A stretch of DNA of 64,000 nt from Chiloscyllium plagiosum (lineage: Eukaryota), in NCBI RefSeq assembly GCF_004010195.1, contig NC_057739.1, positions 25,156,969 through 25,220,968 on the forward strand, written 5' to 3'. Under the pieces are notes generated by a model. It was not told the DNA's origin, did no database searches, and was given only the letters and a program-made list of their open reading frames with translations. Below, piece by piece: positions 2,238 to 60,619 of this stretch (the stretch's first letter is position 1; each line of letters opens with the position of its first letter). The position numbers were made by a program, and so were the translations under genes.

Positions 2238-2363
2238 TCAAAATCACACGACTCTGCTTGTGGCCCAACCGCAAGTGGTTTCAAATAAACCTGTTGGACT
2301 ATAACCTGGTGTTGTGTGATTTTTGACTTTGTCCACTCCAGTCCAACACCAGCTCCTCCACAT
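2238..2363 (+). mobile_element. Short PLE-derived cassette, family B, with partial inverted arm
   Basis: aaataaacctgttggactataacctggtgttgtgtgatttt shared with the 24.1 and 41.2 kb copies; 15-bp TSD catgtattta(t/c)gaaa at 2223-2237 and 2364-2378. Confidence 0.8.
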
Positions 2364-2529
2364 CATGTATTTACGAAAAATACAATAAGTGTGTCCAAGT
2401 CGCCATCATTAATCAGCACCATTTTGATTACCTAAATTATAAAAAAAGAAATAACGCATACAAAGTTAAGACAAATTTCATTTTTATTCCAACCGTGGGT
2501 TTCTTGTTTTCACAAGTGACTATGAGATG

Positions 2530-3062
2530 CTGCCTTACCCCATAGCCGTCCCAGAGCCATCCCTGAGACTGCAACACTGAGGGGGAAGTATGTTGAAGCA
2601 GCTCCTGCCTACACTGACAGGAGCCACAATGCCTCCTCATCACCACCAATGCTCCCGCCACCACCATATGCAAGAGACTGTCCAAACTCCCAAGGACCGG
2701 GTCCATTCTCAATTTCCGAGGAACGATCAGCCGACCAAATTAACTCCCAAGGACCGGGAGACCATTCATTCTGAAGCTGGCAAAACACAAAGAAAAGGAA
2801 CCGGCCCCAATCCATTGACGCTGGAATAGCTACTCAAGCTGTGATCACCATGGCTACAAAGAATGGACCAGACCCACCGCTCAATAGCTTCCCACAACCC
2901 CTCTCCACCACCACAGCTGCAGAATGAAACAAAAAATGAACTTGATTCAAAAGTTAAATGAAGAAAAATAAAACTAAAAAAAAAGGACACTGTCGTTCAT
3001 CAGAGAGGAAGCGGACAGGCTGGGAGTCCGAACACCTCCTAACCTGCCACCTCCGCCATCTT
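2530..3062 (-). mobile_element. Probable LINE 5'UTR-like fragment (L1/Tx1-like)
   Basis: Minus strand starts caagatggcgg (YY1-type motif typical of LINE 5' ends); GC-richer than the flanks; internal repeat actcccaaggaccggg. Confidence 0.35.
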
Positions 3063-3208
3063 GAAAAGAATACAGCTGGTGTCTCAGAATTATTTGTACC
3101 ATTCATCATAGAGAGACAGTCTAAATTAAGTATTGAGATGCAAACCAAAGCCTTTTTACCAGAGTAAATTAAAACACAATTATGCTATGATTGACTGTTC
3201 CACTTAGT

Positions 3209-3492
3209 GGGTGGCACGGTGGCACAGTGGTTAGCACTGCTGCCTCACAGCACCAGAGACCCAGGTTCAATTCCCACCTCAGGCGACTGTCTCCCCGTGT
3301 CTGCGTGGGTTTCCTCCGGGTGCTCCGGTTTCCTCCCACAGTCCAAAGATGTGCAGGTCAGGTGAATTGGCCATGCTAAATTGCCCGTAGTGTTAGGTAT
3401 GGGGTAAATGTAGGGGTGTGGGTGGGTTGCGGGTTGGTGTAGACTTGTTGGGCCGAAGGGCCTGTTTCCACACTGTAAGTAATCTAATCTAA
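3209..3492 (+). mobile_element. HE1 SINE (tRNA-derived V-SINE)
   Basis: A box tggcacagtgg, B box ggttcaattcc, core gtgggtttcctccgggtgctccggtttcctccc, CR1-type tail, (aatct)n. Confidence 0.93.
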
Positions 3493-3677
3493 ATGTTGTG
3501 TTTATTTGCCAGTCATTATTATTATAATTCTCATCAGAAACAGAATAATAGTGTTGCTTTTAAATAGGAATTTTTACAGATGTCCTCAAAAAATCTTTGA
3601 GAAGCATCAAATTGTATGGGCTTTGTTTATCTGACAATAATAATTAAAGTTAATTATTTTCTACAGAAGAAAAAGTT

Positions 3678-3878
3678 AAAGTCACCATAACCTTACCGCA
3701 CCCTGTACTGCCCGCTCATTATGGAGACATGACCAGTGATGGTTTAACCTGAGGGTCACCTCACCTCTGGCATGGGGGGAAGATTAGGAATGAGAATCCT
3801 TTGTGATAAATTCAGCCAGTGCAGGAATTGAATTCACACTGCACAGCAAACTAGCCATCCAGCCAACTGAGCTAACCA
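3678..3878 (-). mobile_element. Older tRNA-derived SINE (unassigned family)
   Basis: Reverse complement begins ggttagctcagttggctgg..ttcaattcc; ggtttaacctgagggt core also present at 19.5 kb. Confidence 0.65.
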
Positions 3879-4279
3879 TTTTGTATGCTTCAGTGACTGG
3901 GCTCTGTGTCCAACACAATATTTTAGGGTTTTGAATATAAATAAATAAATAAACACTACATAAATGAACATAAAATATCAAAGAAGTTATTGCCCAATGT
4001 GGGGTCTCAAGATTCTGAGATTAAGAGGTCCATTAACTATTGAACAAACTAGCCAGACCTTGCTAGAATTGGGATTTGCTGATGTTCCTGCTGCTGACCA
4101 GGAAGGTGTCCAGCTCAGATTTCCATGTGCTGTTATATTTGAGGCCCAGGCAATCCTGATGAAAGTCCACAGTGAGCTTATATTGGGATGAGCAGGCTGT
4201 CTACTTGATAAAGGCTTAAATGTGGAATTTGGGATCCTGCAACCAATTGCAATTTTCAGCTACATAAAGATGGTTTGTG

Positions 4280-4614
4280 TATCCTGCCATTTCTGCTCTA
4301 TTGTGGGCTGATTTCCACCTGGAATGAGAGACAGGCAGGTATGAAGGGATGTGAAAATGGAAGGCACAGATCTTACTTTTTGGTATAGGTGGGGAGGTGA
4401 CTCTAGTGAGTGGGTAGCCAGTGCAAAGATCCTGCAGGGGATCATGGTGCCTGACAGTGAGTGATAGAAGATGATGTCAGTCAGAGGAGTGAAGCATGAG
4501 CCTTGGTGGAAGGTGGCTAGTAACAGAGATCGAGTGAGTGCGAGGTGTCCAAGAGAAGATAGTAGCACTTACACTGGCCGAGTTGTGAAGGTCATTGATC
4601 TCCTTCCTACATTG
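4280..4614 (-). mobile_element. Harbinger/PIF Myb/SANT-like gene remnant with an intron
   Basis: QCRKEINDLHNSAS|gtaagt (donor at 4572); acceptor ctctcattccag at 4319, then KSAHNRAEM. Confidence 0.6.
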
Positions 4615-6539
4615 CTTGTTTAAAGGTATTTTCAGCTACATTGAAACCTGAAACAAATACTGAATTAACTAAATTACAACAGATGGATTTTGTTGCACCA
4701 ATTGGGCAACAAAAACATGCCATGTGCTTTTCTAATTAATAATGTCCGCAGGCTTAAATGCTGGATACACTGCTCCTATAACTCAGGTAAAATAACCAAT
4801 AAATAAACTGTAATTTTGCTGACATCTAGTTATTGTTTCCTAAAGAACAGCCTTTATTTAAGAGTATTAACAAATTATCAACTTTAACATGTCCTCTTTT
4901 AATCTAATCATTATTTAATGAATGAAAGACTGAGGGGGTATTGCATACAAATCTTTATATAAAATATGTTAGTAGCAACAATTAATAAGTGTCCAACAAT
5001 TTCACATTATAGCTTGACAGTCTCTATGTCATTGCATGACTTGGAAGTTTCAACTTTGGCAGCAACGGTTATGTCCAAATACCTCACAGTTCCTGCAGAC
5101 ACTAGTAAAACCATTCTTGCCTGTCTGCACATAAAACTTGAATGCCAACCAGGATAGGTAAAACTCCCCAAGGGAGGGCAGTTTAAACCAGCAACAGATA
5201 GAGAGGTCAGAGGAGAGGTGACTGGGAATTGATGCTGGCTGAAATGAATTCCAGATGTTAGCTGTGACTGACAGGGATCTAGTACTGGAGATAATTTAAA
5301 TCAACATTAGCTGAGACATCAGACAGGGACAGGGTGGTCTAGATAGCTATCTTCTATCAGGAAAAACAGATAATATTCCATCCATTGAGAGTTACAGGAT
5401 CAGCTGTTATGTGACATAATGAATGGCTACTTAAAATGAGGCGCACCATAGAGGGGACCCACAATTACAGAGTCTGGAGACCAATCATTTTTCAAGCTTC
5501 AAATCTTCAAAGGCTTGAAAATTCTGAACATGCGACAAATATTCCTAGAAGCTCTGGTGATGGACACCATTTACTTAAGAACACTACCAGGATAGAATAA
5601 AGGAGTCCATTTTCCCATCTTACATGTGGCAGAGTTGGTTCCAGCCTATTTTCATCATTTGAGTAATTATTTGTTGCTTCCTTTTCATGAGTCGAACATA
5701 TTTCTCATAACGGGAGAATTAATCCTGCACATCATACTCCTTCTGTGGGCAACTAATGTTTTGCTTAAATTTACCAGCAAACTTCTTGTTTTTATTTTTA
5801 ATTTTTTTTACACATACTCCTCCCTATAATCATTAATATCAGAATATCCCTCACTTAAGGAACACAGCTCCTTTCTTACACATCCCAACTGGGATTTGCA
5901 AATTGGAAGAGTAGAGAAGAGGAACAGATTGAACATTCCTTGGCTATTGTATTCAAATGAATGATTTGAGTGAAAAGCCCAACATTAATTTATCTCTGCC
6001 CAGCACAAGGTGGTAACATTTATTTATTAATAAGATTGTGGATTGCAGAAGTCCATTGTTTCCTTGTATCTAAGTATTTGAATCTTGCAACCATGTCAAA
6101 TATTTTACCAACATGTTTCAGTCTATCACACTGATTTACTAAGTCAACAATTATGTTGTGTGTACACAGTAATTTTGTCTGGTTACACAAAGTGGAAAAG
6201 CAATTAAAGAAGTTAATGAATAGTTTACCAAACATTTAGAATGTGTTGCTCTCAAAGGCGAAAATAGTACTTCAGAAAACAATCTCCCTTGTTGTCTTTT
6301 ACCTTTCTATCCTCATTCTTGGATGTCAAAACACTTGATTGCCTGAGATAGAAGGCCAGTAAATTGTCTTTAGGTGGTTGCCTACACTATTTTGAATTTG
6401 TTGTCAGGAGTCATTAGATCACAGGGGAGTGAATGGGGGAGACCATTTGTAGATTAACTGTTCTGAAAATCTTGGGATTCAATCAAAGAAAACCTGGACT
6501 CTACCACCATGACTGATTCTGGAGGCTAAGGCTGCAATG

Positions 6540-6850
6540 AGGTCAGAAGCTCAATGGCCCTGGCAGAACCCAAACTGAGTGTCAGTGAGCAGGTTATTAC
6601 TAAGGAAGTGTAGCTTGATAGCACTGCTGGTAATGCCTTCCATCTCTTTAGTGATAATTGAAAGTAGGCTGCTGGAGCAGTATTTGGCCAAGTTGGATTT
6701 ATATACCGGACATAGTTGGCCCATTTTCCACATTGTTGGAAAGATACGAATGTTATAGCTGTAGTAGAGCAGCTTGGTTCAAGGCATGATAGGTTCTGGA
6801 GAGTAAGTGAATGTTACTATTAATAGAATGTTGTCAGTGCTCATAGCCTT
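6540..6850 (-). mobile_element. CR1/L2-group LINE RT fragment
   Basis: ORF 6551-6733 reads SLLSIITKEME..HFLSNNLLTDTQFGFCQGH. Confidence 0.75.
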
Positions 6851-6899
6851 GAGGTGACGGCATTGAAGATCTTCTAGTGGTTGATACAACTGAATTGCC

Positions 6900-7160
6900 A
6901 TTTCAGCGTGCAGTTAGGAATTAATCATATTGCTGTAGGTCTGGAGTCACATTTGGACAATAGTTTTCTTTTCCCTAAAGGGCATTAGTGAATCGCATGG
7001 GATTTTACAACAACCAGCATCATTGGACTTCAAATTCCAGGTTTTTATTTGATTCACATACCCACTATCTGGTGTGATGGAATTCAAACCTAGGTCCCCA
7101 GTACATTACCTGGATCTCTGGATTACTAGTGTAGTGACTATGCGGTTCTACAATTGCCTC
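6900..7160 (-). mobile_element. tRNA-derived SINE, family C (partner of the CR1/L2-group LINE)
   Basis: ccctaaagggcattagtgaa..ggaattcaaacc..cattacctggatctctggatt; related copies at 13.1, 24.4, 30.0 and 35.75 kb. Confidence 0.7.
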
Positions 7161-7254
7161 CTCTTCACATTTGCTCCTGGTAGTGGAGAGAACCTTCTCT
7201 TCTTGGTAGGTGCAAGTCTCACCTCTGGTCTCTCTACAGGTAATCAGCTCTTAA

Positions 7255-7577
7255 CTGGAGTGGCTCAGTGGTTAGCATTGCTGCCTCACAGCACCAGGGA
7301 CCTATGTTTGACTGCAGTCTCAGACAACTGTCTGTGTGGAGTTTGCACATTCTCCCCATGTCTGCGTGGGTTTCCTCCTACAGTCCAAAGATGTGCAGGT
7401 TAGGTGGATTGCTCATGCTGAATTGCCTCATAGTATCCAGGGATGTGCAGGTTATGTGGATTAGCATGGGAAATGTGGGGTTAAATAGGGTAGGGGTCTG
7501 GGTGAGATGCTGTTCGGAGGGTGGGCGCAGACCCGATGGGCCAAATGGCCTCTTTCCACACTACAGGGATTCTATGA
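7255..7577 (+). mobile_element. HE1-like SINE, older subfamily
   Basis: tggctcagtggttagcattgctgcctcacagc head, V-domain core, tail gggccaaatggcctc..gattctatga. Confidence 0.85.
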
Positions 7578-10500
7578 TAATAGGCTGCTGGGTAGCTGAT
7601 CCTCACTTGAGTGGGCTCTCCCAACTGACATTCTAGCCACAGGGCAGGAGGAGAGCTGCATAAGGGATCCAGCAGCCCAATAAGTCCAGCTCATAGGATA
7701 GTAAAGCACAGGAAGCAGCTATTCTGCCAATCAAATCTGTTCTAGCTTTTTCACAGAGCAATCTCATTCTACCCACCTCCTCTTGTTATTCTTTTTATCG
7801 CTTTATTATTATTTATTTCCTTTTGATAATGTAGTGCGTGCACATGCAATAGCCTATCAGAGCCTGTCAAATTCCAACCAGTTCTTAGGGATTGAGGGGC
7901 TTGGTCCCTGTGTGTAAAAGGAGTGTCACATAAAACGGGCCCAACTTTAAATCAATCCATCAGAAAATGGGAGATCAAATAACTCTGTAAACCAGTATCC
8001 ATGAGAGTTGAATGCATTGCTGTGTTTGGACCCGATCATTACGATGTGATTTTGTGCAGTTGATTTTTGTGATTTTGCATTATTGACAGAAGCAATCACG
8101 GTTGGTTCTCACATCTTCTCTCTATCTACCACGTGTCCCGATTTCCAGGGTGTTATTGTCACAGGCAGATACTATTCTAGGTCATTTACATGGATGAGAA
8201 AGAAACAAATCTGGGGGGTGGGTAGGACCTGGCCCAGAGTATCCGAACAGGCAATCTGAACTTGGCACAGAATTGGAGTTCAGGTGGTTAAGCTTCAACA
8301 GGTAGTGAGCTCTGAAGCAGAAGCAGGCTCTCTGCAGGGACCAGGGTGAGAGCAACTAAGATTGGCTTTTTATAGTCCTGGGGTTAGCTAAAACCAATTA
8401 GATACGTTTATCATCCAACTGAGGACACAAATTGGCGCTATGCAGTTTTGGTGGTTTATAAACATGGAATCACAAGTTTGGAGGTTTAATATTCTCTCCT
8501 GTCTGGGAGCTTGGATCTGCTTTCAGGCATATGAAGAATTTCCAAAGGGAGAGGAATCTATGCCTGTGTAGTTTCTGGGGCTGCTGACCCAAAAGGCAAC
8601 TTATAGAAGAGATAAAGGAAACTGAAGAGAATAGTTTTCTTTGCTGCACTTGGCAGTGAGGTGCACAGGCTGTACCATTAGCTCTGACCTGCTTTTACAC
8701 TGTAATAGGAGATGCTGCACTGTTTGTTACAGGACAGAGACTTTGAATGTTGTTATTAATCCTGAGAACCTTTTGTTTTTTAATTAAAATCTACCTTTAA
8801 CCTTTTGCAGGGCCTCCAGCCAAAATGTGCACTTCCCATTTCAGAATAGCTGAGTCTGCAGTGAGAAAGCAGCTTGAGTTATTTGCTGGTGTAAAGATAT
8901 TAGGTAGGAGGTGCTGGGAGTTATTACACTCCTGATTTCAAGACCAAATGCAAAGTTTTTTCTCGGATAGAAACTTTGCTTTCATTGTTCTATTTGGTGC
9001 TTTAGTCCATAAACCTGTAACTCTAACAGATGCCTCACAGATTTCCCATCCTAAACCACAGTGAGAGTATTTTGTTTATTGTTTTAAGCCAAGCATCAAT
9101 GACAAACTGAAGTACAAATAGTGACATGTGATGTATGTATTGTTCAAGTTTAAAAGATCTTTTAAGCCGACAAGCTATTTAGTTGTAATATTTCTCTGGT
9201 GTCAATTAAGAGTATTTGTGTTATAGTCAGTCAGTGCTTATTTGCTTGTTTATTAATAGAAAAGTGTCTGACAGTGAAGATTCCTGACAAGTAAGGGTAA
9301 TGTATAATGCTGGGTGATTTATGAGTAAGGATTGATCATTGTTTACTGCAGTCCTGAAGCAGTGATGGTGAAACCCAGTTCTGTTTTCAATGATGAAGTG
9401 TAGTCATGCACTTAATTCGTATCCTCCAAAAAGAGCCTAGCAATTTAAAAGGGCAATAAAACACGTCATTAATTTTTAGATTAAAACCTCATTTACTCCC
9501 TGCTGTCATTTCACACTTTGCCCTGATGGTTTCACTTCCTAATGCCAATTGCAGTTAGATTAACAAAATTTTAGCTGTGGGAACAAATTTGGTAAGTATC
9601 CCAATTTCTCTTGTCTGAATGACAGATAATGGCTCGCTATATGAAAAAAGGACAATTCCCACCCTTATAAAACTGGTTTAAAGGCCATTTGTAAAATTAA
9701 CATTATTCCTTAAAAAGTCAATTGTGAAAAGTGAATTACCAACAGATCAGAACATAAAAGGGGGCTGTGAGAATGAGTCAACTGGTATTTAATGATGATA
9801 TTCTTAAGGTGTTGGTATGTCACCACAAACTGTACATATTTATATATTCAAATTCCCCACCAAATTCCCTACTTCCATACAAGTGTCGACATGGAGTAGG
9901 AGCTGGTTGTCTGCCTTTGCTTTGAGTTGTTGGAAAAAGAGTGACTGAAAGGAATAAAGAACAACATTGCTCTAAAATGTATCTTTCAACAGAAGAAACT
10001 CCTCTTTACTAAATACCTCTCCAGAACATTTTGTCTAAGAACTGGAACTCCCTGTCCTAATATGCACAACATGTCAACATAAAAAAATAATTTCATACAA
10101 AACAAATTAAAACAGAATTGGTCCACTTGTCCATACTTTCAAACAGACCATATACATTGGCTTTTATACTATTTTCATTTCTTTTTGTTCTTGAACATCG
10201 ATCTTTCTTTCAAAGACCAAAAATGATTAATGACTGAGACTCTTTAAGATGCTAGAAAGTAAATTCATTAATTTCGCACTCAGTGTGCAGGCACATGCTC
10301 AATGAATTGCAAGTCAATGGGAGAATAACGTAGCTTGTGGAAGCAGGCACGTTCTGTTCACATACCCCCTCCAATTCAAATAATTTTTTTAAATGGGTGA
10401 GGTGTAAAAACAAGTGTCTTACTTAATATTTTACTGCTGCATGAGTTAGATTCACCACTAGAGAATCAATGCATATGTCATGTCCCGAGGTCCGACTCAT

Positions 10501-11034
10501 TCCTTTGCATGTCCCTGCTGGTGATGCTGAATTTACCCTTGTTTCTTTACAATTTGGAATATTTTTATGCATTTGAGCACCAGACATGAAAAAAACAATG
10601 TACTTGGAAAGAAGTAAAATGTTTTACAAATGATTTATTTTATACATCCCTCTCTCATTTCCACACCATTGGAGGTAGCATTATACCTTGCAATTATCTG
10701 GAATTCCCTATCTTGAATCCTTTGCCATTTCGTTCGTCCTTTCAGACACTCTTCAAAACCATTTCTTTGGCCAAGCAAGTTTCTTTAATAGCTTATTTCG
10801 CTCAACATCAATTACTATACTATCTTGGTTTGGGTTGTTTTCCCTTGTTAAAGATATTGGATTATTACAAATTGTTGTTACATCAACATTGCACTGTCAT
10901 ATAATGTACAATAAGTTACTAAGGAAATAGATGGAACCTTGATAACAGTTTGTGTAACTGAAGAATGTGCTGGTTTCACAGTTGCATGTATCTTATTGAT
11001 AATCTTTATACGATGCAAAATTGAAGACTGACAT

Positions 11035-11425
11035 AGACTCATAGAGTCTTAGAGATGTACAGCATGCAAACAGACCCTTCGGTCCAACCCGTCCATGCCA
11101 ACCAGATATCCCAACCCAATCTATCCCACCTGCCAGCACCTGGCCCATATCCCTCCAAACCCTTCCTATTCATATACTCATCCAAATGCCTCTTAAATGT
11201 TGCAATTGTACCAGCCTCCACTACATCCTCTGGCAGCTCATTCCATACACATACCACCCTCTGGGTTGAAAAAATTGCCCCTTAGGTCTCTTTTATATCT
11301 TTCCCCTCTCACCCTAAACCTACGCCCTCTAGTTCTGGACTCCCCAACCCCAGGGAAAAGACTTTGCCCATTTATCCTATCCATGCCCCTCAAAATTTTG
11401 TAAACCTCTATAAGGTCACCCCTCA
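11035..11425 (-). mobile_element. HER1/CR1 LINE 3' fragment
   Basis: RGDLIEVYKI..WNELPEDVVEAGTIATFKRHLD; tail ctatgagtctatg. Confidence 0.95.
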
Positions 11426-11534
11426 CATTTAGAATCAACTTGAAATAAATTTATTCCAGGTAGATGTAAATGATGTTCACTTATCTTAAACCATCTAATA
11501 TATCAATCTCACTAATTACTATATCAATTGAGAC

Positions 11535-12520
11535 TTCTGATAATACGATCCTACCATCAAACAATTTTCCCCTTCATTCCACTGTTCACTTTCCAGAGGG
11601 ATCATTTCCTGTATTTCCTCCCCAGTTCAGTTGTTCACCAGCTCGCACCGACAGCTGCCATCTCCTGGCATCTGGGCAGTCACATGTTTTGGGTGAGTGC
11701 ACATAATGTATCACAATTGTGTAGGGCAGGCCAGGTGAACCAGGGGATCTTTACCTCAACCATCATTGTTCATAGGTTCTCAAATGCAGAAGATGAAACA
11801 ATGATCATACGTCTCTACACAGTCCATTGCCCAGGGTTCCAAACATTCTCTACATGCAAGACAGCCTCCCCCAATTTATATAATCTATTGAATTATCCAT
11901 TTACGGATCAGCCACTTCATCATTCAAGAAAACATAAATGGATTAGTGGTTTTTCTAAACACCTCAACTGTCTGCAAATGCGCTCCTGCACGTTCTGCAC
12001 TTTTAATTTCTCCTTCCTCACTCAGTCTTTGATACCATACACCATTTACACAAAACTCAACATGTGTTTCAGGAACACCATTTTACTTTCCTACTAGACA
12101 TAGAAGAATCCTCTGATTTCAGGTAGATCCCTCTTAGTTTCAATTCCAACTTTGTCCCTCTTCTCAAACCTCCCATCCCTCAGCTAATCACATCCTTTGC
12201 CTTTTTATACTTCTCATATTTCTGTACCTTGACTCAGATAACCTATACCTGCCCACTGCTGATCTTATTTCTGAAAACATGCATCAGGAATGGTGATTAC
12301 ATGTATGATCATAGCAATTTCAAAAACACTTTTATTCCTTCCGATTTTAGCTGTCTTCCCCATTTAAGAAACTGGCCAATTTACATCACTTCCAAAGAAG
12401 AGATTTTGGACTTGAAAAGTTAACCGTTTTTCTGTCCACAGTTGCTGCCTGACCTCCTGAGTTTCTCCAGCATTTTCAGTCTTTATTTCAGATTTCCAGC
12501 ATCCTCAGTACTTTGCCTTT
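11535..12520 (+). mobile_element. Highly decayed Penelope-like element 3' region with old terminal repeat
   Basis: YDPT..IFPFIPLFTFQRDH resembles PLE DPTT..IFPSPPLSAFRRDH; 12390-12520 matches the PLE terminal repeat (gctgcctgacct..tttctccagca). Confidence 0.5.
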
Positions 12521-13049
12521 ATGTATGTCAATTCCACCTCCTGTGCAGTAAATAGGGATATATTAAAATACAACTCAGAAGTGAATTTTCTAATAGTTTT
12601 CCTCCTTTCCCTCAGATACATATACTTGTTACAATCAACATCTAGCTAAAAACAAGACTTCAGGCAAATATACAATGCACTATCCACTTTTTATAACAAC
12701 CTGACATGCTGGGGATACCTTCTCCAGTGGTGAAGTTACCGAACCAGCAATGCAGTGACAATGCGCAATTTTCAACTTCACTATGGCTCTCTTGGACATG
12801 TGGGATTGATGATTGTGTCCTTTAATCTCCTTATTGCTGATGCAATCTGGTTTGCAGTGAGATACTGCCCGGAGGTCGGGGACTGAGATCAATGTTGTTT
12901 CAATTCTCACTGCCAATCAAGCTCCAATATAATTATTTAGTTGCACAGCTGCAGTGGACTCTGACATTTGCTGCAACTCCAGAGCTAGTCTCAGTCTTTG
13001 TCAGATTGAGGTTCCCTTCCTAAGGAAGCTGCTAACAGTTCACTTTAAT

Positions 13050-13759: not shown

Positions 13760-14031
13760 CAGGCAGAAGGCTAAAAGAACACAGCAAGCCAGGCAGCATC
13801 TGGAGGTGGAGAAGTCAATGTTTCGGGCATAACCTTCTTCAGGACTCGGGTGGGTGTCGGGGGAGCTGCAGATAACGACAGCTTTAAGGGTGGGGGCTGG
13901 GTGATGAAATGGGCATAGGTGAAGACAGGTAGAGGGTATGATCTGGTTGGTCAATGTGAGGAATGAATCCAGTTGGCAGCAAGGAGCAATGGAAGGGATG
14001 GGGACAGGCTGGGAAGGGAGTCGGGGGATGG
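13760..14031 (-). mobile_element. PLE 3' region with degenerate hammerhead motif
   Basis: Reverse complement cctgaagaaggttatgcccgaaacattgac (13815-13843) followed by gatgctgcctggcttgctgtgttct. Confidence 0.7.
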
Positions 14032-14051
14032 CTCCAGATCCACAGCAATAT

Positions 14052-16358: not shown

Positions 16359-16385
16359 AGAATTGTGAAAGGTTTATGGTGGTAG

Positions 16386-24032: not shown

Positions 24033-24200
24033 GAAATAAAAATCACACAACACCAGGTTACAATCCAACAGGTTTATTTGGAGCTGACGAAGGAACAGCG
24101 TTCCGAAAACTTGTACTTCCAAATAAACCTGTTGGACAATAATCTGGTGCTGTGTGATTTTTACTTTGTTCACTCCAGTCCAACACCGCCACTGTGACAT
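24033..24200 (+). mobile_element. Palindromic PLE cassette, family B
   Basis: Inverted arms aaaatcacacaacaccagg.. / ..ctggtgctgtgtgattttt; 11-bp TSD cacaaaaatat at 24022-24032 and 24201-24211. Confidence 0.85.
24084..24113 (+). ncRNA. Minimal hammerhead ribozyme motif (helix III mutated)
   Basis: CUGACGA-A-GGAAC-agc-GUUCC-GAAA. Confidence 0.65.
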
Positions 24201-33177: not shown

Positions 33178-33370
33178 GGAGAAAGTGAGGACTGCAGATG
33201 CTAGAGATCAGAGCTGAAAATGTGTTGCTGGAAAAGCGCAGCAGGTCAGGCAGCATCAAAGGAACAGGAGAATCGACTTCCTGAAGAAGGGCTTATGCCC
33301 GAAACGTCGATTCTCCTGTTCCTTGGATGCTGCCTGACCTGCTGCGCTTTTCCAGCAACACATTTTCAGC
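33178..33370. mobile_element. Palindromic PLE cassette, family A
   Basis: About 65-bp near-perfect inverted arms around a hammerhead; 14-bp TSD ttttcagagactga at 33164-33177 and 33371-33384. Confidence 0.92.
33278..33312 (+). ncRNA. Minimal type-I hammerhead ribozyme motif, intact core
   Basis: uuc-CUGAAGA-A-GGGC-uuau-GCCC-GAA-ACGU-C|ga; palindromic ACGU helix III; predicted cut after 33308. Confidence 0.8.
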
Positions 33371-41128: not shown

Positions 41129-41308
41129 TGATTTGGAGATGCCGGTGTTGGACTGGGATGCACAAAGTTAAAAATCACACAACACCAAGTTATAGTCCAA
41201 CAGGTTTAATTGGAAGCGCTAGATGGCTGATCAAGGAGCAGCGCTCCAAACGCTAGTGCTTCCAATTAAACCTGTTGGACTATAACCTGGTGTTGTGTGA
41301 TTTTTAAT
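41129..41308. mobile_element. Palindromic PLE cassette, family B, with mutated hammerhead (41227-41256)
   Basis: About 55-bp inverted arms; ctgatcaaggagcagcgctccaaacgctag; 10-bp TSD attttataaa at 41119-41128 and 41309-41318. Confidence 0.88.
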
Positions 41309-43200: not shown

Positions 43201-43449
43201 TGTTCAGACAAAACTAGACACCAAACCAAATAAGGAGGCATTAAAAGAATTGATCAAACTTTTGTGCAAAAGGGTCCTAGGGCAGCAGTAAAGTCAATGC
43301 TTTCTCATGACTAATGTTTATTTCCCTTTATTCTGTTCGTACTGAGTGTATTGATCATTCCCTATAGAATAGAAATTTACTGAGGGAATTATTCTACTGG
43401 GATGCAAATGGTGCAAACATAACTGAAATGACTTTTAAAATGGAAATTA

Positions 43450-45340: not shown

Positions 45341-45639
45341 GATGCATTCATTGCTCTCTGTGAGTCAGTCAACCTTTAATCTATTCACAGATTGCCCTTC
45401 TTAACCACAGCACTTGCTAAAAAGGAAAATAAGATTTTGTGACAGAATATTGGCACTGTATTAATTTTTAATTATAAATGCAGAAAATGCTGGAAATACT
45501 CAACAGGCCAAGTAGCACATGGGGAGGGAGAAAAAGCATTAATGCTTCAGATATTAAATATTTCCAGAAACTATTATTTTTATTTTAGGTTTTGACATTC
45601 ACGGTTCTTTTTGTGGTGCTCAAATGTTGACATGGAAAT

Positions 45640-45812: not shown

Positions 45813-45814
45813 AA

Positions 45815-46879: not shown

Positions 46880-47322
46880 AAATTAGATTAGATTCCCTAC
46901 AGCGTGGAACAGGCCCTTTGGCCCAACAAGTCCACACTGACCCTCCTGAAGAAGGGCTAATGCCCGAAACGTCGATTCTCCTGTTCCCTAGATGCTGCCT
47001 GACCTGCTGCGCTTTTCCAGCAACACATTTCCATCTCTGATCTCCAGCATCTGCAGACCTCACTTTCTCCTCTGAAGAGTAACCCACCGAAACCCATTTC
47101 CCTCTGACTAATGCACCTAATACAATGGGCAATTTAGCATGGCCAATTCACCTGACCTGCACATCTTTGGACTGTGGGAGGAAACCGGAGCACCCGGAGG
47201 AAGCCCACGCAGACACAGGGAGAATGTGCAAACTCCACACTGACAGTCGCCTGAGGCTGGAATCGAATCTGGAACCCTGGTGCTGTGATGCAGCAGTGCT
47301 AACTACTGAGCCACCATGCCAT
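46880..47322 (-). mobile_element. HE1 SINE interrupted by a PLE cassette, itself nested in an old CR1 (about 46720-48030)
   Basis: HE1 head at 47322, (agatt)n tail at 46882. Confidence 0.92.
46944..47071 (+). mobile_element. PLE cassette family A with intact hammerhead (46946-46975)
   Basis: cCUGAAGAAGGGCuaauGCCCGAAACGUC|ga, then the terminal repeat to cactttctcc. Confidence 0.9.
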
Positions 47323-47696
47323 GACGATTTCTGCCTCACCGTTCCTTGTAGAGAATGAGTTCCAGATTCCTACCACTTTCAAAGTGAAAAAAGTTTCCTC
47401 TCAATCTCTCTAACTTCCCGCCCCCTTCCCTTAAATCTATGTTCCCAGTCATTGATCCCTCCATCATGAGAAAAAAGTACCTTGCTATCTATAATCCTCA
47501 TAAATTTATACATCTCAATAACATCCCCCCCTTAGCTTCCTTTGCTCCAAGGAAAATAAGCCTTGTCTATCCATTTTTACTTCATAATAAAACTCTGAAA
47601 CCCGTGATATCCTGATAAATTTCCTCCAGTGCCATCACATCGCTTCTATAATGTGGATTTTAGAACTGCATGCAATACTTTACAATACTGTGGCCT

Positions 47697-47920
47697 TGGA
47701 GAAAGTGAGGACTGCAGATGCTGGAAATCAAGTCAAAAAGTGTGGCGCTGGAAAAGCACAGCCGGTCAGGCAGCATCCAAGGACCAGGAGAGTTGACATT
47801 TTGAGTATAAGCCCTTCATCAGGAATAACGTTCCTGATGAAGCGCTTCTGCCTGAAACATTGACTTTCCTGCTCCTCAGATGGTGCCTGACCTGCTGTGC
47901 TTTTCCAGTGCCCCACTTTT
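47697..47920. mobile_element. Palindromic PLE cassette family A with two opposed decayed hammerheads
   Basis: Minus motif 47794-47826, plus motif 47831-47863 (ctgatgaag..gaaac); 14-bp TSD caatactgtggcct at 47683-47696 and 47921-47934. Confidence 0.88.
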
Positions 47921-48606
47921 CAATACTGTGGCCTAACCAAAGTTTTATATGATTCCAGAGTAATCTCCCTGCTCTTAACTCTGTGTCTCAGCTAACAATC
48001 CCATCAGTTTTGTTAACCACTTTGACCAATTGACCTACCTGACAAAACTGTCCACCCCAGTACTAGCCCAAACACTGACCACAACACTATCTCATCATGA
48101 TCTGAAACCAGATTCCAATCAGCAACACACCCAGAAGCAATCCCATCCCATTAAACATAGTGCAGATTTAAATTATTTATAGGATTATTGCCTCTGGTTA
48201 CAAACCCTAGTTCAGGATTTGAGATTGAAATCTAACATGACACTTCATTGGAGTTCTGTGGGAGTGCTGCATTGTCAGAATCTGTGGTTTTGGGTATAAT
48301 TTTTTTTAAAAGATTCCCTTTTTGCCATGATAGCATTTCAGTAGGTAGAATCTTTCACTATATAAAGAGTCAATTAATGTGGGATTACTAATTAGTAGAT
48401 AATTGAATTAGCAAACACATATTTAACTAGAGTAGGAAAATAAATATTGTGGCAGTTTGGTGTCCTCTGTGAGTACAGAGTACTGTGAGCATATGATAGC
48501 AAGCTTTCACCATCGTTCTAGAGAAAACTACATCATACTATTGTAATAATGTTGAAAATAATAACTTCTCCAATGTGATTTATATCACCTTTAATACGTG
48601 GCACAA

Positions 48607-53700: not shown

Positions 53701-54436
53701 GAATGTTAAATAGAAGTACAGATACAGTGCAGAATATTTTGAGTGTGGTGGAGCATTTGTGTCCATAATTACACTTGGTAACAGCAATAGACATGTTGAT
53801 TTTCAGAATAGTTTGGTCCTTCACAGTGAAGCAGAAATGAAAGAAGACGAAAAGGATACTTGAGAAAGTCACTACACAGAGAGAGAAATTAATCTATTTC
53901 TGCCAAGTATTTTTGTTTAAGTAGTCACTTTGTAAGCTATACTAATTCATTTTCACCATTGATCATTCACTTCTGACATGAGAGCTTTTTCAGGTGGAGC
54001 AAGTTCCAGTGTTTTCCTATGGCTGAGGATTATCCACAACTCTCCACTTAGAGGAGAGCTCCATGAAAGAATCCAGATTCATGATTAAACTGAAAATGTC
54101 TTCTATTAAACATTTTTCACATTTTTATGTTTCACATGTTCACATTTTTAACAGCTCCCTCTATTATTACATTTCTCTCTCCTTTGGTTTCAGTAAGTGA
54201 ACTATTCAGACTTATACTGAGAGCAGGAGGATCACAAATCTGATCATCCTTCTGTTCAGAGATAATTCATTTCAGACATGGGCAATAATGCTATAACTTG
54301 TCTCAGACCAAGGAGTACAAACCAGAACCCAATGAGCATCACTGAAGAGTGCCTTGGTGCTGGTTGGTTGAGGACAGTGACTCAGCTAAATGAGTTTTAG
54401 ATTAGCTGATGTAATGTGTGGGATATGATTTTCTAA

Positions 54437-54565
54437 GTTGAAACTTTATTGCTGGAACAGCACAGCAGGTCAGGCAGCATCCAGGGAACAGGAGATTCGA
54501 CGTTTCAGGCACAGGCCCTTCTTCAGGAATGAGCAGAGAGTGTTCAGCAGGAGAAGATAAAAGGA
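54437..54565 (-). mobile_element. PLE cassette family A with hammerhead (54495-54530)
   Basis: Reverse complement AUUC-CUGAAGA-A-GGGCcuguGCCU-GAAACGUC-GAAU (4-bp helix I); 10-bp TSD gattttctaa at 54427-54436 and 54566-54575. Confidence 0.88.
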
Positions 54566-55029
54566 GATTTTCTAAATCAATGTTCATATTTTCCAAAACA
54601 TGGCTACATTGAAACCAGCAAGGATGTAAAGATATACTGAACCAAGCCAATACACCACCTCTAGGTTCCAGGGATCAAATGTGTAATATCGTAGGGTTCT
54701 TCATAAACTGCCTTTAGACTTTCAGAAAGCCAGAATCATGTCAACTCCTAATTGTCAGAATAACATGTCCTTGCTCTACATTACCTCCGAATTAAGATAT
54801 CCTGAAACACGATCATCAGGGATTCAGGCGCATAACTGTTCTAGATTACCAAATCAACATCACTCTAGATCATGAGGGAGTCAGGTACATGATGATTGGT
54901 AAGCCAGTGAATAAGGCAGAAATTGACGCTAGATTATCAGAAAAATTCAGATCCATATTAGGTTGAGATTGTGAGAGACAAAGACATATTTGGCTGGAGA
55001 CTGTCAGGGGATGAGGCATATATTGGCTC

Positions 55030-55230
55030 CAGAAATAGACAATGCTGGAGAACCTCAGCAGGTCTGATAGAGAGAAACAGACCCAATGTGACTCTTCTTT
55101 TGAACACCAAAGTTCCAAAGGGTCAATATTGGACTTGAAATATTAACTCTGCTTCTCTCTCCACAGACTGGCTGATATTCTTCAGCACTTTCAGGTTTTA
55201 TTTCAGATTTCCAGCATCTGCAATATTTTC
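55030..55230. mobile_element. Old palindromic PLE terminal-repeat remnant
   Basis: tgctggagaacctcagcagg.. / ..ggacttgaaatattaactctgcttctctctccacaga..atttccagcatctgca; related remnants at 12.4, 45.5 and 61.47 kb. Confidence 0.55.
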
Positions 55231-57803
55231 ACTCTATTTATTGGTTTTAGTTTATGAAAGTTTACTTAATTTTCTGTAACATTTTTACATTATAAATAAG
55301 GATGAATCAATGCAGAAAAATAATAATCATCAAAGTTTGATCTGAGTGTATTGTGTCGAGCTCTGTACAGGCTGGATTCTTTTTGTCTATTCTGTGTATT
55401 GTGGCCAGCATTGTACATGTCTACAGTTACTGGTGATTGAAGTGAGTAATACTCATCAGCTCATTCTTACTCATTGGTTAAATCATCAGCAATGCCACTC
55501 TCTTCCATAATATTAGATTACAAGATCATTTAACATTGGGCCCTGTATATGACATTACAAAATAATGGGGCACATTAGAACACAGCCAAAGAGATCTCAG
55601 AACAATCTAAATGGGGTGGGGTCTCTTATCATATTCTCCATAGAGGTGTAACTGTGAGGATGGTATGTAAGAAGGTACTTATGGAAGCTTTCTATATCTG
55701 AATAATTTCTCAAAATGTCTGTTTGTTAAAAGTTGTTAAAGGAACTGTTTTAACTCCATCAATTTCCAAATAAAGGAGTGGAATCAGGCAATTTATCATA
55801 AGGGAGGCAATGAGAACTCTATATATCAAAACTGATCTATTTTCACTATAAATAACAGACTACTGTCAGTGCAAGGCAGAGATCTGCATCCTCCTCTTTG
55901 TTAATGATTTTTCTGAAGTCTCACGATTGTGTGACAAGACAATACCTGCCAGTTATATGAAAAGCGTATACTTTTTAAAGTGGAATGCCAAGCACATCAA
56001 GCAATTGTCTGATAATATAACTACCAATCATGTTTTTCATAATACAGCTTTAAATGAAAAATTTGCAAATCATACAATAGTATCAGCAAGTGGAAAGAGC
56101 AGGTATCAATGAGACTGAACTACTTTAATTAGAATATGTGAAATGTTTATGAAATCACAAGTTTTGCATCAAGAAATTATCAAACCCCTGAGTTCTCCCA
56201 CCTTCATAGTAAGGGGGTGGGGTAATATTCCACAGTGGAGACCTTTGCTCTGTTGAAAATCCCTGGTGTCCAGGCTTTCACTGACAGGCAAACTATTTTG
56301 TTTGAATAATCAGATGTTTTAGCTTTCACTAGCCTTTTGGAGCATTAAGTTAGAGGGGGTAGCATCAGAATGAGCAGTCCCAGGTTGAGACTTGAAACAT
56401 TTTTGTACATGCCATGGTTGTGTGTGCAGCATGGAATGTTAGTCCATGAGCAAGATAAAATTCAGACTTCTGAATCTAACAGGTTGCTACGGTGATCCAT
56501 TCGCACTCTCACGTGTTTTTGTCTTCCAGATCCACTCAATGCTAGAGATGCATTAGCACAGTTTCTTTCAGTAAAGAAATGATTTTCTAATGCATGTGCA
56601 TTCAGTTATTAATAAGCCAAAGTTCACTTACAAGCTTTGATTTTTTTAAACCGGTAACACATTTTGGGGTAAAAGGAAACTGTATTAGAAATGTCAAATG
56701 CTAAGAAATTTATTGTAAAACTTCTGACCTTTCAAATTTGAATAGAACATCCACAGTCTAATAATGTAAAGTGAAATAACCCAACTTTGGGCTGATAGGG
56801 AGGGACATAAAAATGAGAAGAAATGAATAGAGAGGGTTGGCACACCGACTTCAAATATCATTTTCGAGAGGTTGCAATCAGCCTATTTTTAAAATAAAAC
56901 ACTGTTTCAAAATGTGAACTGTCTAAGAAAGCAAGCTCATGATGTGTAAAACCAGTCAATACTTCAGATTATACGCTGGATTGTTCCGTGGGTAAAATGA
57001 TTCCAGCTAAGTCAGGACATTGCTCACTGGGAGCAGAAACATTGGGAAATCCTGGGTGTTGGAACAAAGGCATGCAGCAATGGGAATGTACTTGTACAGA
57101 AGACTAAATGGTTACACAGGTCAAGAGGCTTGAAGAACAGGAATAGAGAAATGACACATCCAAGGACACCCAAAGGCACACTGTAATTAGCAAAGTAGTA
57201 AAAAATAGGGAGATGTAGGATCTCTGGAAATAATGGAAGAGAAGATTTACATTGCTAAAATTGAAGAGTTGTAAATTGAGGAATAAATAATAAATCATGA
57301 GTAGATGTATTGATTCGTATTTGTGCATCTGAGTTCTTGAACAGTGGCTGTTTTCTTCATATTATGTTTCTTCTAGACATAAAGCAGGTTTGGTGAGGAA
57401 GCGATGTAGTCACTGGTTGCTTTTCCCAACAAAATACTTGAATAAGTAACTTAATTATTTTTAACAACCCAGAAGAGAGATTCTAGTTGCAGACATATTG
57501 GACAGACATATAAAGGTAGGCTGAAAAGCAACAGGTTTTCCCCACAGGCTTGGCTCAGGTTTCCTCATGCGGTAATGTTCTCAGCTGTATGTATGGTCGT
57601 GTGAGGGTAGAGCAGCAAATGAAGTTGGCAGGCAGGAAGCTCTGAATCCCACCAGGACATTCTGGGCCTACAACACCAGGGGCAATATTTACAAGACACT
57701 CGGACAACAATTCACTCTCTCCAACCCAGGAGCATCATTCAACCTTGCTCATCACCCTCACAATATGGAGATATCTAAGACCTGGCTATAACCAGCAACA
57801 CTG

Positions 57804-57952
57804 TTCAGTGATGCCTCCTTTCCCGAAGAGAGAGGTGAAGTGCATTTCCCAAATCTGGCAACAATAGACCATCTCGCAAATGCCCAAGGACAGTTCAGAG
57901 AATCTGGCTCCAGTGCTACAAGAGAATGCATGATTGGTTATGCTCCACCAGG
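57804..57952 (+). pseudogene. Harbinger Myb/SANT-like ORF remnant
   Basis: FSDAS..ERGEVHFP..QRIWLQCYKRMHDWLCSTR. Confidence 0.6.
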
Positions 57953-58299
57953 CTATGTACAACTCTTTACACAATGCTTCATGCCCCTACTGCATATCAC
58001 TGCACAGGATTGTCACACACACACACAATAATTGTGCTGGCAATCTCTAGCCTTTGTGTGACCAATATCTGTCACTTCCATTGTAGCTAGTATGTAACAC
58101 TGCTAATGGTACTGTCTCTCACATGTCTGCCAGGGTTCACACTTAAAACAGAAAAGGAGCTAGAATAGGTCTCAGCAGCTGAGAGCTCACTGTCTTGACC
58201 TTAAGGCTGCATCTGACTGAGTGCAGCATCAAGAGGCCCTGGCAAAAGTAGAGTCAATGAAAATCGGGAGCAACCTCTCAGCTGGTTGGACTCTGCCAT

Positions 58300-59760
58300 C
58301 TCGATAGATAGTTGTGGTTGTAGGAGGTCAGTCATCTCAGCTCCAGGACATCACTGCATGAGTTCCTCAGGGTAGTGTCCTAGGTCCAACCATCTTCAGT
58401 TGCTTCAATAATGACCTTCCCTCCATCATAAGATCAGAAGTGGGGATGTTCACCGATGAATGCACAATGTTTAGCACTATTTACTATTCCTCAATACTGA
58501 AGCAGTCCAAATCCAAATGCAACAAAGTCTGGAAAAGAATCTAGTTTTAGGTTGAAAAGTGACAAGTAACATTCACATCACACAAATGTCAGGCAATGAC
58601 CCCCTCCAATAAGAGACAATCTAACTATCACCCTTGACATTCAATGACTTTAATATCATTGAATCTCCCTCTATTAACATCCAGTAGGTTACCATTGACC
58701 AGAAGCTAAACCGGACTAACAACATAAATACAATGGTTACAAGAACAGGTCAGAGGCTAGCAGTATTGGGGTAAGTAACTCATCTCCTGAATCCCCAAAG
58801 TCTTTCCACCATCCACAAGACACGAGGCACAAGTCAGGAATATGATGGAATACTGCCCACTTGCCTGGACGAGTGCAGCTCCAATAACACTCAAGAAGCT
58901 TGAAACCATCCAGGACAAAGCAACCTGCTTGCTTGGCACCACATCTACAAACATTCAATCCGTCCAACACGGGCGCTCAGTAGCAGCAGTGTGTATACCA
59001 CCTACAAGTTACACCAATGAAGTTTACCAAAGATCCTTAGACAGCATCTTCCAAACCCATGACTACTTCCATCTCAAAGGACAAGAGCAACAGATACTTT
59101 TTTCAAACAGTAGCTGTTTTCATTAGAGAAAAGAAGGTTTAGGGGTGACTTGATTGAGGTTTACAAGATGATTAGGGGGTTAGATAGGGTTGACAGTGTG
59201 AACCTTTTCCCGCGTATGGAGTCGGGTATTACAAGGGGGCATAGCTTTAAATTAAGGGGGGGTAGATATAGGACTGAAATTCGGGGTAGGTTCTTCACTC
59301 AGCGAGTCGTAAGTTCATGGAATGCCCTGCCTGTAGCAGTGGTGGACTCTCCCTCTTTATGGGCATTTAATCGGGCATTGGATAGGTATATGGAGGATAG
59401 TGGGTTAGTATAGGTTAGGTGGGCTTGGATCGGCGCAACATCGAGGGCCAAAGGGCCTGTACTGCGCTGTATTCTTCTATGTTCTATAACCTCAGCATCA
59501 TTCTATACCTGGGCACACCACCCCCTGCAAGTTCCCCTCCAAGTCACTCACCATCCTGTCTTGGAAACATACTGCTGTTTCTTCACTGTTGCTGGGCCAA
59601 AATCCTGGAATTCCATCCCTCATGGCATTGTGGATAAATCTATAGCGTTCGACTGCAGTGGTTCAAAAAGACAGCTCAGCCCTACCTTCTCAAGGGCAAC
59701 TAGGGAGGGACAATAAATGCTAGCCTGCTAGCAATGCCCACATCTCTGGATTGAATAAGA
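58300..59760 (+). mobile_element. CR1/L2-group LINE RT plus 3' end
   Basis: QDITA*VPQGSVLGPTIFSCF.NDLP..MFTDEC; MEYCPLAWTSAAP..KKLETIQDKA; tail gggacaataaatgct. Confidence 0.9.
59098..59487 (+). mobile_element. Young CR1 3' fragment (distinct subfamily) nested in the LINE above
   Basis: LIEVYKMIRGLDRVD..FFTQRVVSSWNALP; CpG-rich; tail ttctatgttctat. Confidence 0.93.
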
Positions 59761-60255
59761 AAACAAATATGTTGAATCTTCTAACTGTTTGTATCCTCCT
59801 TACAGACATCCTGCAGGAGCGATGATGACTCCGAATGCTCACATGCACATCATGCAGAGCAAAGATCACTTTCATTTCTTTCTTCTGGGAGAAATGGAAC
59901 CTGTGGAAAGTGGGAGCCAGACAGTTGGAGTTTGGGAATCAAAGTGCATTGTTAGTCCCTCTGTACTTCAGTGATAATGAATGCCCCTGGCAAATGTCTG
60001 TCCTGACACATGGAGCACAGTCCCTATGTTGACCTACATAACTCATTACTGAGGCTCTGAACAAAACAACTGAATAGGAGGCTAGTGGGGCAAAGGGAAC
60101 AAATTAACTTATAACTTATGCCAAGTAGTTTAATGTTTAAAGTTATAAACCAAGCATTATGGTGGAGACAAGAATGTGTCTGTACAAAATTTGGCACGTA
60201 GGTTTCAGTGTTTCACATGCTCATGCAAAGCATAGCTGCTATTATATTCTCTTGA

Positions 60256-60382
60256 GGAGAAAGTGAGGTCTGCAGATGCTGGAGATCAGAGCTGAAAATG
60301 TGTTGCTGGAAAAGCGCAGCAGGTCAGGCAGCATCCAGGGAACAGGAGAATCGACGTTTCGGGCATAAGCCCTTCTTCAGGA
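60256..60382 (-). mobile_element. PLE cassette family A with intact hammerhead (60349-60384)
   Basis: Reverse complement uucCUGAAGAAGGGCuuauGCCCGAAACGUC|gauuc; 15-bp TSD attatattctcttga at 60241-60255 and 60383-60397. Confidence 0.92.
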
Positions 60383-60619
60383 ATTATATTCTCTTGAACC
60401 TGTCTGCCCTGTGCCACCTCCTACTGTCCTGGCTTCATCAGCAGCAGCATCAATGTTGGCTCGCTCAGCATCTCTGCCAAACTCCCTTTGTTCCTTGGCT
60501 GAGAAAACAGCTGACTGGACTCTGCCATGGAGCTAGGCAGTGGAGTGTGCAGCAAACAATGACTGTTCTGGAGACCTTGTCCACTGAGTACCAGAGTGCT
60601 CCTCCTCCAGGAGTCCAGG

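What the first reader, a model, noticed from the sequence alone, without database searches (positions are those of the whole stretch)
2238..60384. Dense set of short hammerhead-ribozyme cassettes from two Penelope-like families
Seen: eight 125-225 bp insertions (2.2, 24.0, 33.2, 41.1, 46.9, 47.7, 54.4, 60.3 kb), seven with 10-15 bp TSDs, plus a longer remnant at 13.8 kb. All but the 2.2 kb copy carry CUGANGA-A-stemII-GAAA, intact or degenerate, followed by a palindromic tetramer (ACGU in family A; AGCU inferred for family B) and an NUH site. Cores at 33281, 46946 and 60380 are intact. Established: PLE terminal repeats carry minimal hammerheads with a palindromic helix III thought to work as dimers. 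Inference: about one cassette per 8 kb, made of little more than ribozyme plus terminal repeat, suggests a SINE/retrozyme-like non-autonomous population mobilised by the PLE RT/GIY-YIG, rather than random truncation.
Basis: partly seen in the sequence, partly recalled or inferred. Interest (0 to 1): 0.8.

Follow-up and report, generated by a model that had tools for sequence, protein, structure and literature searches.

The report
Penelope stubs starting at the hammerhead
The short hammerhead-bearing insertions are end-pieces of two ordinary, very abundant Penelope-like jumping genes, with no sign of a separate mini-element lineage, and about half of them begin just before the ribozyme motif, likely because the copied RNA starts there.

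Summary
The eight insertions are real (126-224 bp, seven with TSDs). They are the hammerhead-plus-tail ends (pLTRs) of two Penelope-like elements (PLEs), whose longer copies carry RT and/or GIY-YIG.

In a 1.54-Mb genome sample such insertions occur once per about 5 kb, so the window is not unusually dense.

A SINE or retrozyme lineage is not supported:
- Short and long copies do not separate by sequence.
- Copies carrying the ORF start stop at the same place.
- Head-to-tail arrays are at most 8 of 312.

A TATA-like motif sits about 30 nt upstream of the pile-up in both families, outside the cassette. The best reading is that stubs are run-off cDNAs ending at the transcript start (inferred). 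In 79 of 87 inverted insertions one arm has the tail and one lacks it, suggesting priming from both target strands. No cleavage was shown.

The scan noted the pile-up before, elsewhere in this genome.

The parts
2238..2363 (+). Family B stub without hammerhead core (alignment starts at +31), with tail; TSD 2223-2237 / 2364-2378
13760..13890 (-). Old family A copy, degenerate core at 13842, tail-less, extends upstream into 3' UTR-like sequence; upstream limit approximate; no TSD found
24033..24200 (.). Family B head-to-head insertion: tail-less arm on minus, tailed arm on plus with core at 24084 (palindrome broken, helix I 5' strand absent); TSD 24022-24032 / 24201-24211
33178..33370 (.). Family A head-to-head insertion: tailed arm on minus starting at +25, tail-less arm on plus starting at -3 with intact core at 33281; neither arm contains the other; TSD 33164-33177 / 33371-33384
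41129..41308 (.). Family B head-to-head insertion, degenerate core near 41227; TSD 41119-41128 / 41309-41318
46944..47070 (+). Young family A stub, -2 to +125, intact core at 46946, inserted inside another short repeat; no clean TSD
47697..47920 (.). Older family A head-to-head insertion with two decayed cores (47822 minus, 47834 plus), both arms ending near -4; TSD 47683-47696 / 47921-47934
54437..54565 (-). Family A tail-less copy starting at -38, so it keeps the TATA-like TTTAT at its 5' edge; core at 54526 with G-U at the base of stem II; TSD 54427-54436 / 54566-54575
60256..60382 (-). Young family A stub, about -2 to +125, intact core at 60380; TSD 60241-60255 / 60383-60397

Best explanation
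The cassettes are hammerhead-plus-tail end pieces (pLTRs) of two Penelope-like retrotransposons that begin just upstream of the hammerhead core, likely because reverse transcriptase starts 85-125 nt inside the element's RNA and runs off at that RNA's 5' end. SHOWN: the cassette is the same sequence that follows the GIY-YIG 3' UTR and precedes the ORF start; 3' ends fall at two sites about 35 nt apart; 5' ends pile up at about -4 (A) and -9..-3 (B), counting the first C of CUGA as 0; an AT-rich motif is conserved about 30 nt upstream. INFERRED: that motif plus an initiator-like site is the core promoter, so the transcript starts at the hammerhead's 5' edge; the element protein primes at the two internal sites of the uncleaved 5' pLTR; cDNA that reaches the RNA end is joined to the target and gives a stub. 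INFERRED: inverted insertions arise when both nicked target strands prime, one at each site. Stubs lack the upstream motif and would be dead ends. Most hammerheads in them are passengers.
For: (1) Identity: natural copy L094 has RT, a Cys-rich linker and GIY-YIG ahead of the cassette (GIY-YIG E 1.9e-4, RVT_1 E 0.008, both below Pfam's cut-off). One decayed copy at G000:C2 near 110,003,500-110,006,700 runs tail, ORF start, RT, GIY-YIG. One long B copy matches GIY-YIG (35%, E 4e-5). (2) Peak: 141 of 210 A arms and 48 of 79 B arms reaching +9 stop at -14..+9; a majority do so in 27 of 36 blocks with at least 3 such arms. (3) The stop is tied to position, not length: tailed 73 of 138 and tail-less 71 of 145 A arms. 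(4) Not an alignment artefact: 21 of 35 TSD-bounded single A copies start at -6..+7 with the TSD within 7 nt. (5) Not the cut site: 7 A ends at +25..+31 against 97 at -5..+1; 2 B ends at +26..+32 against 29 at -9..-3. (6) TTTAT starts at -45..-30 in 35 of 42 long A arms (background 4 of 381 windows), TATAAA in 13 of 16 long B arms (2 of 121); 12 of 13 and 4 of 5 spacer lineages keep them. (7) Two insertions repeat one 5' end twice (-63/-63, -59/-59), as expected from run-off and re-jump. (8) 79 of 87 inverted insertions pair a tailed with a tail-less arm (p 8e-16 against 0.5), and in 38 of 79 the tail-less arm reaches further 5', which simple fold-back cannot give. (9) In vitro, a lizard PLE extends both target strands from two internal sites and uses uncleaved RNA (PMC11167929).
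Against: No transcript start was observed: the one informative RNA run shows no place where many molecules begin, and 93-94% of reads run into unrelated flanks. The promoter motifs were chosen after seeing the sequences; TTTATCT is also a GATA-type site on the other strand (recalled). In family A the peak coincides with the 5' edge of helix I, so -4..-1 may be conserved for pairing alone. Copies holding the ORF start pass the site about as often (4 of 13) as copies in general (68 of 210 reach beyond -14), which a pure run-off model does not predict without strand transfer or read-through RNA. The cap-G test (G after -4 ends in 7 of 17) and the motif-spacing test were inconclusive. TSDs were found for only 44 of 217 single-arm insertions.
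Confidence: 0.6

Rival explanations
1. RT stall: the RNA extends further upstream, and RT is displaced at the 5' edge of the hammerhead by the fold or by bound element protein, then jumps to the target or to the other strand's cDNA.
For: The family A peak (-4/-3) equals the 5' edge of helix I. About one arm in three passes the site, in ORF-start copies as in the rest. The PAc hammerhead is protein-assisted, so protein contacts this region (PMC11167929).
Against: RT has already removed the 3' strand of helix I when it gets there (inference). Helix I is predicted unstable. There is no comparable peak at the stable stem II. Family B ends reach -8/-9, beyond helix I. It does not explain the conserved motif 30 nt upstream.
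Confidence: 0.2
2. One reading: a non-autonomous SINE- or retrozyme-like population, copied from short master elements by the PLE protein.
For: Half of the insertions have their 5'-most end at the ribozyme (110 of 217 A, 35 of 75 B). 82 of 292 insertions extend past -40 and keep the promoter-like motif, so some could be transcribed. pLTR sequences can act in trans (PMC3846280), and non-LTR retrozymes are proposed to derive from pLTRs (bioRxiv 10.64898/2026.07.22.740005).
Against: No length-specific lineage. The same stop appears in ORF-start copies. 5' junctions are heterogeneous and inverted arms differ between insertions. At most 8 of 312 insertions are head-to-tail. In PAc the minimal RNA needs sequence beyond the RT start sites, which tail-ended stubs would lack.
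Confidence: 0.12
3. Ribozyme cleavage defines the cassette: RNA is cut at GUC and the product is copied or circularised.
For: Core and stem II are intact in 86 of 172 A arms and 25 of 72 B arms spanning the core. One tandem B insertion has an arm ending at about +28.
Against: Cleavage would give 5' ends at +28/+29; these are rare (9 against 126 at the peak). Stubs contain sequence on both sides of the cut. Fold-backs sequester the motif.
Confidence: 0.03
4. Ordinary random 5' truncation, or a mapping artefact caused by divergent UTRs.
For: There is a smooth background of ends on both sides of the peak, and UTR spacers differ between subfamilies.
Against: The stop rate is about 7-fold (A) and 3-fold (B) above the highest neighbouring bin, and TSD-bounded copies confirm the boundary.
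Confidence: 0.05

Closest known systems
Minimal hammerheads (min-HHR) in pLTRs of metazoan PLEs (PMC4209133)
   Same: Type I core, extra nucleotide before stem II, palindromic helix III positions, short helix I; mostly single dispersed motifs attributed to truncated PLEs.
   Different: Here roughly ten to a hundred times more copies by extrapolation than the 4,000-9,000 reported for coelacanth and frog, and the 5' ends are mapped to a sharp site upstream of the core.
Insertion architecture of endonuclease-positive PLEs: pLTR, 30-40 bp tail, adjacent inverted copy (PMC8557442, PMC3846280)
   Same: Tail at one end only, head-to-head inverted arms, TSDs; a TATA- and initiator-like pair was noted in a rotifer pLTR.
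   Different: In 38 of 79 inverted insertions neither arm contains the other, which does not fit the self-priming explanation proposed in PMC3846280.
PAc (Poseidon from Anolis) internal RT initiation (PMC11167929)
   Same: Two RT start sites defining the tail, both strands extended, uncleaved RNA used.
   Different: Family A has the Cys-rich linker of Neptune/Nematis type, its first matching ATG lies after the tail rather than in stem II, and 15 of 19 abutting TSDs start with the T that follows the tail, hinting at 1-2 nt microhomology.
Non-LTR retrozymes (bioRxiv 10.64898/2026.07.22.740005) and the schistosome Sm-alpha element (PMC6155905, PMC6765202)
   Same: Short, non-coding, type I hammerhead; retrozymes are proposed to be pLTR-derived.
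   Different: Retrozymes are tandem arrays with at least two hammerheads; these are dispersed singles or inverted pairs without their own upstream promoter motif.
Retroviral minus-strand strong-stop DNA (recalled)
   Same: A short cDNA from an internal priming site to the RNA 5' end, matching a repeat at the other end.
   Different: Target-primed and integrated directly; strand transfer is not shown here.

Membership tests
Endonuclease-positive Penelope-like element | Single ORF with RT followed by GIY-YIG | tested here: met
   Family A: L094 and the C2 copy. Family B: GIY-YIG fragment only, in 1 of the 2 longest references; RT linkage not tested.
Endonuclease-positive Penelope-like element | pLTR at both ends of the ORF, optional 30-40 bp tail, inverted copies | tested here: met
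   Cassette found after the 3' UTR and before the ORF start; bimodal 3' ends; 87 head-to-head insertions.
Neptune clade | [quoted passage not shown] | tested here: met
   Cys-rich linker in L094 and L102; PMC8557442 gives this for Neptune and Nematis alike.
Neptune clade | RT phylogeny groups with Neptune | not tested
   No reference RT sequences were fetched.
PLE minimal hammerhead | CUGANGA, one extra base, stem II, GAAA, palindrome, NUH | tested here: met
   86 of 172 A and 25 of 72 B arms spanning the core keep core and stem II; ACGU-C in 53, AGCU-A/U in 22.
PLE minimal hammerhead | Self-cleavage as dimer or with protein | not testable with these tools
   Folding only; the RNA reads were uninformative.
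Non-LTR retrozyme | Head-to-tail array with at least two complete hammerheads | tested here: not met
   0 of 9 in the window; at most 8 of 312 sampled insertions have any head-to-tail arrangement.
Non-LTR retrozyme | Circular or monomeric RNA cut at the ribozyme | tested here: inconclusive
   No pile of read starts or back-joint at the cut site in one poly(A) single-cell run, about 2% read.
SINE | Own lineage amplified from short master copies | tested here: not met
   Nearest-neighbour test p 0.16 (88 short, 29 long A) and 0.34 (24, 10 B); low power.
SINE | Promoter carried inside the copied unit | tested here: inconclusive
   The conserved TATA-like motif is upstream of the stub; an internal promoter, as in Drosophila Penelope (PMC2377424), was not tested.

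The most novel reading that the evidence does not exclude
PLE reverse transcription always starts in the 5' pLTR and makes a retrovirus-like strong-stop cDNA. Two times in three it is integrated as a stub; otherwise it transfers to the 3' pLTR and continues into the element, which would also regenerate the promoter-bearing partial tandem. Both target strands are primed, one at each start site. The genome's hundreds of thousands of stubs would then be a fossil record of this intermediate.
Probability: 0.25. Interest if true: 0.7.

Novelty: new member of a known kind. Interest (0 to 1): 0.4.

Why it matters
The elements are of a known kind, and the motifs are mostly passengers. The value lies in the end statistics. 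How PLEs regenerate their pseudo-LTR and form inverted copies is open (PMC2377424 states there is no obvious mechanism). This genome gives sharp, testable coordinates: a predicted transcript start at -4 (A) and about -8 (B), two RT start sites, and a one-tail-per-insertion rule. These can be tested with cap mapping and with the published in vitro assay.

Tried and rejected
- Rfam scan: no hammerhead model matched; five weak microRNA-hairpin matches, all below gathering score.
- queried the wrong side of a minus-strand locus and returned an unrelated repeat; discarded.
- RNA: no holder listed as RNA on record. Run X20 laid no reads. X19 shows both strands, mostly running into flanks, with no start or end pile. 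Contig runs X1 and X2 may be DNA. None of this counts for or against expression or cleavage.
- Cap-G test and motif-to-end spacing test by subfamily: inconclusive.
- The tree step failed on label format; only the nearest-neighbour test was used.
- Splice-acceptor explanation of the peak: AG positions differ among subfamilies (-2 to -25) and no shared upstream exon is seen in short copies; rejected.
- Length-dependent drop-off: rejected.
- Simple fold-back as the only source of inverted arms: rejected.
- Free co-folding of two short copies did not give the dimer hammerhead; not decisive.
- One search had wrong coordinates and gave no result.
- Rows dropped: arms bounded by N at the 5' end (20 A, 1 B) were not counted as ends; 20 of 303 A arms fit a third family better and were removed but remain in the, 54 and 58 counts; L288 was dropped from the ORF-start set because the alignment landed on another copy.
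Full report
Numbering: 0 is the first C of CUGA; the predicted cut lies before +28 (family A) and +29 (family B). An arm is one oriented copy; an insertion may have two arms.

OBSERVATION. The eight insertions and the 13.8-kb remnant are present. Seven have TSDs of 10-15 nt; the same search succeeds at 7 of 300 and 4 of 300 random sites. Four insertions are head-to-head fold-backs. Three cores are intact as stated, and a fourth (54526) is nearly so. Helix I at the three is 2 contiguous base pairs, with predicted pairing at most 0.045. Rfam does not detect these motifs. Four older copies of a third related family lie at 12.4, 45.5, 55.1 and 61.5 kb.

IDENTITY. A genome search with the 46.9-kb copy gave near-identical copies on many contigs, some extending upstream. 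Walking upstream reached the end of a GIY-YIG domain and then RT. Natural copy L094 holds part of RT, a Cys-rich linker and GIY-YIG (E 0.008 and 1.9e-4, both below Pfam's cut-offs). Downstream of the tail, three sampled copies continue into a shared ORF start, and one decayed copy links tail, ORF start, RT and GIY-YIG. The cassette is therefore the pLTR found at both ends of the element. Family B has copies extending 0.9 kb upstream; one matches GIY-YIG. The linker suggests Neptune or Nematis (PMC8557442, passages); no tree was made.

GENOME SAMPLE. I took 40 blocks of 40 kb at round coordinates on large contigs, 1,537,891 non-N bases. They hold 303 A-like and 108 B arms in 312 insertions. Twenty A-like arms fit the third family better, leaving 292 insertions. 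That is one per about 5 kb, against one per 7 kb in the window. A rough extrapolation gives about 650,000 insertions genome-wide. Core and stem II are intact in 111 of 244 arms spanning the core.

5' ENDS. 141 of 210 A arms and 48 of 79 B arms reaching +9 stop within -14..+9. The rate is 4.44 per 100 nt against 0.08-0.65 (A) and 3.30 against 0.29-1.22 (B). The mode is -4/-3 in A and spread over -9..-3 in B. The peak is the same for tailed and tail-less arms, holds in 27 of 36 informative blocks and appears in TSD-bounded copies (21 of 35). Ends at the cut site are rare: 7 and 2, against 97 and 29 in equal windows at the peak. [quoted passage not shown]

SINE OR RETROZYME? Nearest neighbours do not share length class more than shuffled labels do (0.663 against 0.624, p 0.16; 0.621 against 0.573, p 0.34; only 72 nt, so weak). 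I fetched 20 stretches for the 42 ORF-start matches. Of 21 usable arms, 13 reach +9 and 9 of these stop at the same site, so autonomous-type RNA gives the same end. Retrozymes are defined as tandem repeats with at least two hammerheads (bioRxiv 10.64898/2026.07.22.740005, abstract to discussion read; its supplements were not seen and may list families of this animal group). At most 8 of 312 insertions show any head-to-tail arrangement. PMC4209133 (results and discussion read) already describes most minimal hammerheads as single motifs probably from truncated PLEs.

WHY THERE? In long A arms TTTAT starts at -45..-30 in 35 of 42 (mostly -37..-33; background 4 of 381), ahead of a spacer variable in sequence but steady in length, with A at -4 in 38 of 42. 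In long B arms TATAAA starts at -40..-38 in 13 of 16 (background 2 of 121), with A at -8 in 12 of 16. The motif is kept in 12 of 13 and 4 of 5 spacer lineages. About 30 nt is the usual TATA-to-start distance (established knowledge). A TATA and initiator pair in a rotifer pLTR (PMC3846280, passages) and transcription from within the pLTR (PMC2377424, passages) are in print. Two insertions repeat one unusual 5' end twice, and 10 of 19 junction fillers of 8 nt or more contain element-templated pieces. Against this reading: the motifs were picked after inspection; the A peak also matches the edge of helix I; ORF-start copies pass the site as often as others (4 of 13 against 68 of 210); cap and spacing tests were inconclusive; RNA reads showed no starts.

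3' ENDS AND INVERSIONS. 3' ends are bimodal, about +85 and +120/+125, matching the 30-40 bp tail and the two RT start sites in PMC11167929. Of 87 head-to-head insertions, 79 have exactly one tailed arm, while single arms are tailed in 99 of 217. The tail-less arm reaches more than 5 nt further upstream in 38 of 79, the tailed arm in 17, and 24 are similar. Some junction calls are blurred by near-palindromic overlap, but many are clear, including 33178-33370. Where neither arm contains the other, both must be copied from RNA. Priming from both target strands is my inference. A tail at one end only is already described.

RIBOZYME FUNCTION. Not shown. Monomers are predicted not to form helix I, fold-backs bury the motif in a long hairpin, and inverted pairs place the two cores on opposite strands. 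Activity, if any, likely belongs to tandem or protein-bound source transcripts.

PRINT AND SCAN. Searches listed no PLE paper containing strong-stop or twin priming, and none with Neptune, Penelope, shark and retrotransposon together. The library lacks most subscription journals; the 2005 and 2006 PLE reviews and the 2016 dimer paper were seen only as references. PMC6155905 and PMC6765202 were read as passages. Earlier notes of this scan report the same pile-up and transcript-start idea elsewhere in this genome. I had written that reading before looking; the notes are not independent evidence. They call the host a shark; I did not test that.

VERDICT. Real, correctly located, and a new member of a known kind. 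The SINE or retrozyme reading is not supported. Run-off at the transcript start is the most likely cause of the short length (0.6). Interest 0.4.

Noticed in passing
window 12386-12525, 45474-45535, 55038-55240, 61456-61555: Four older copies of a third related PLE-end family with a different stem II; 55.0-55.2 kb looks head-to-head. 12 of 20 sampled arms of this family also start at -10..+9.
   Followed up: partly
window 46885-47320 and L002, L003, L007-L010, L012, L013, L017: Family A stubs inserted at the same site of another abundant short repeat (recalled as a shark SINE/LINE tail), with different 5' junctions, so independent events. The target resembles the RNA sequence after the tail, suggesting microhomology priming. 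The query included this flank, so the count is biased.
   Followed up: partly
G000:C1:100023934-100024240 (L203): Head-to-tail family B pair whose first arm ends at about +28, the predicted cut site; a single case that could be a jump onto a cleaved RNA.
   Followed up: no
L094 oriented 2500-2590; L102: Long copies with internal deletions joining the GIY-YIG end to the 3' UTR; in L094 the joint is 8 nt upstream of the core, with short microhomology.
   Followed up: no
G000:C6:15017301-15017680 (L142): Two arms share an almost identical old UTR but carry hammerhead regions of different subfamilies, with the switch at the core; chimera, conversion or assembly artefact.
   Followed up: no
window 44241-44377: Tandem repeat of a 27-nt unit, about five copies.
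   Followed up: no
window 11033-11450, 16381-16910, 20978-21504, 25329-25840, 39203-40190, 43449-43760: Several truncated copies of a LINE-like element; open frames at 20978-21421 and 39756-40190 look like RT C-terminal parts (CR1-like, recalled).
   Followed up: no
L033, L095, L110: RT-region copies contain short tandem reiterations of 27-43 nt, either repeated template slips or short-read assembly artefacts.
   Followed up: no
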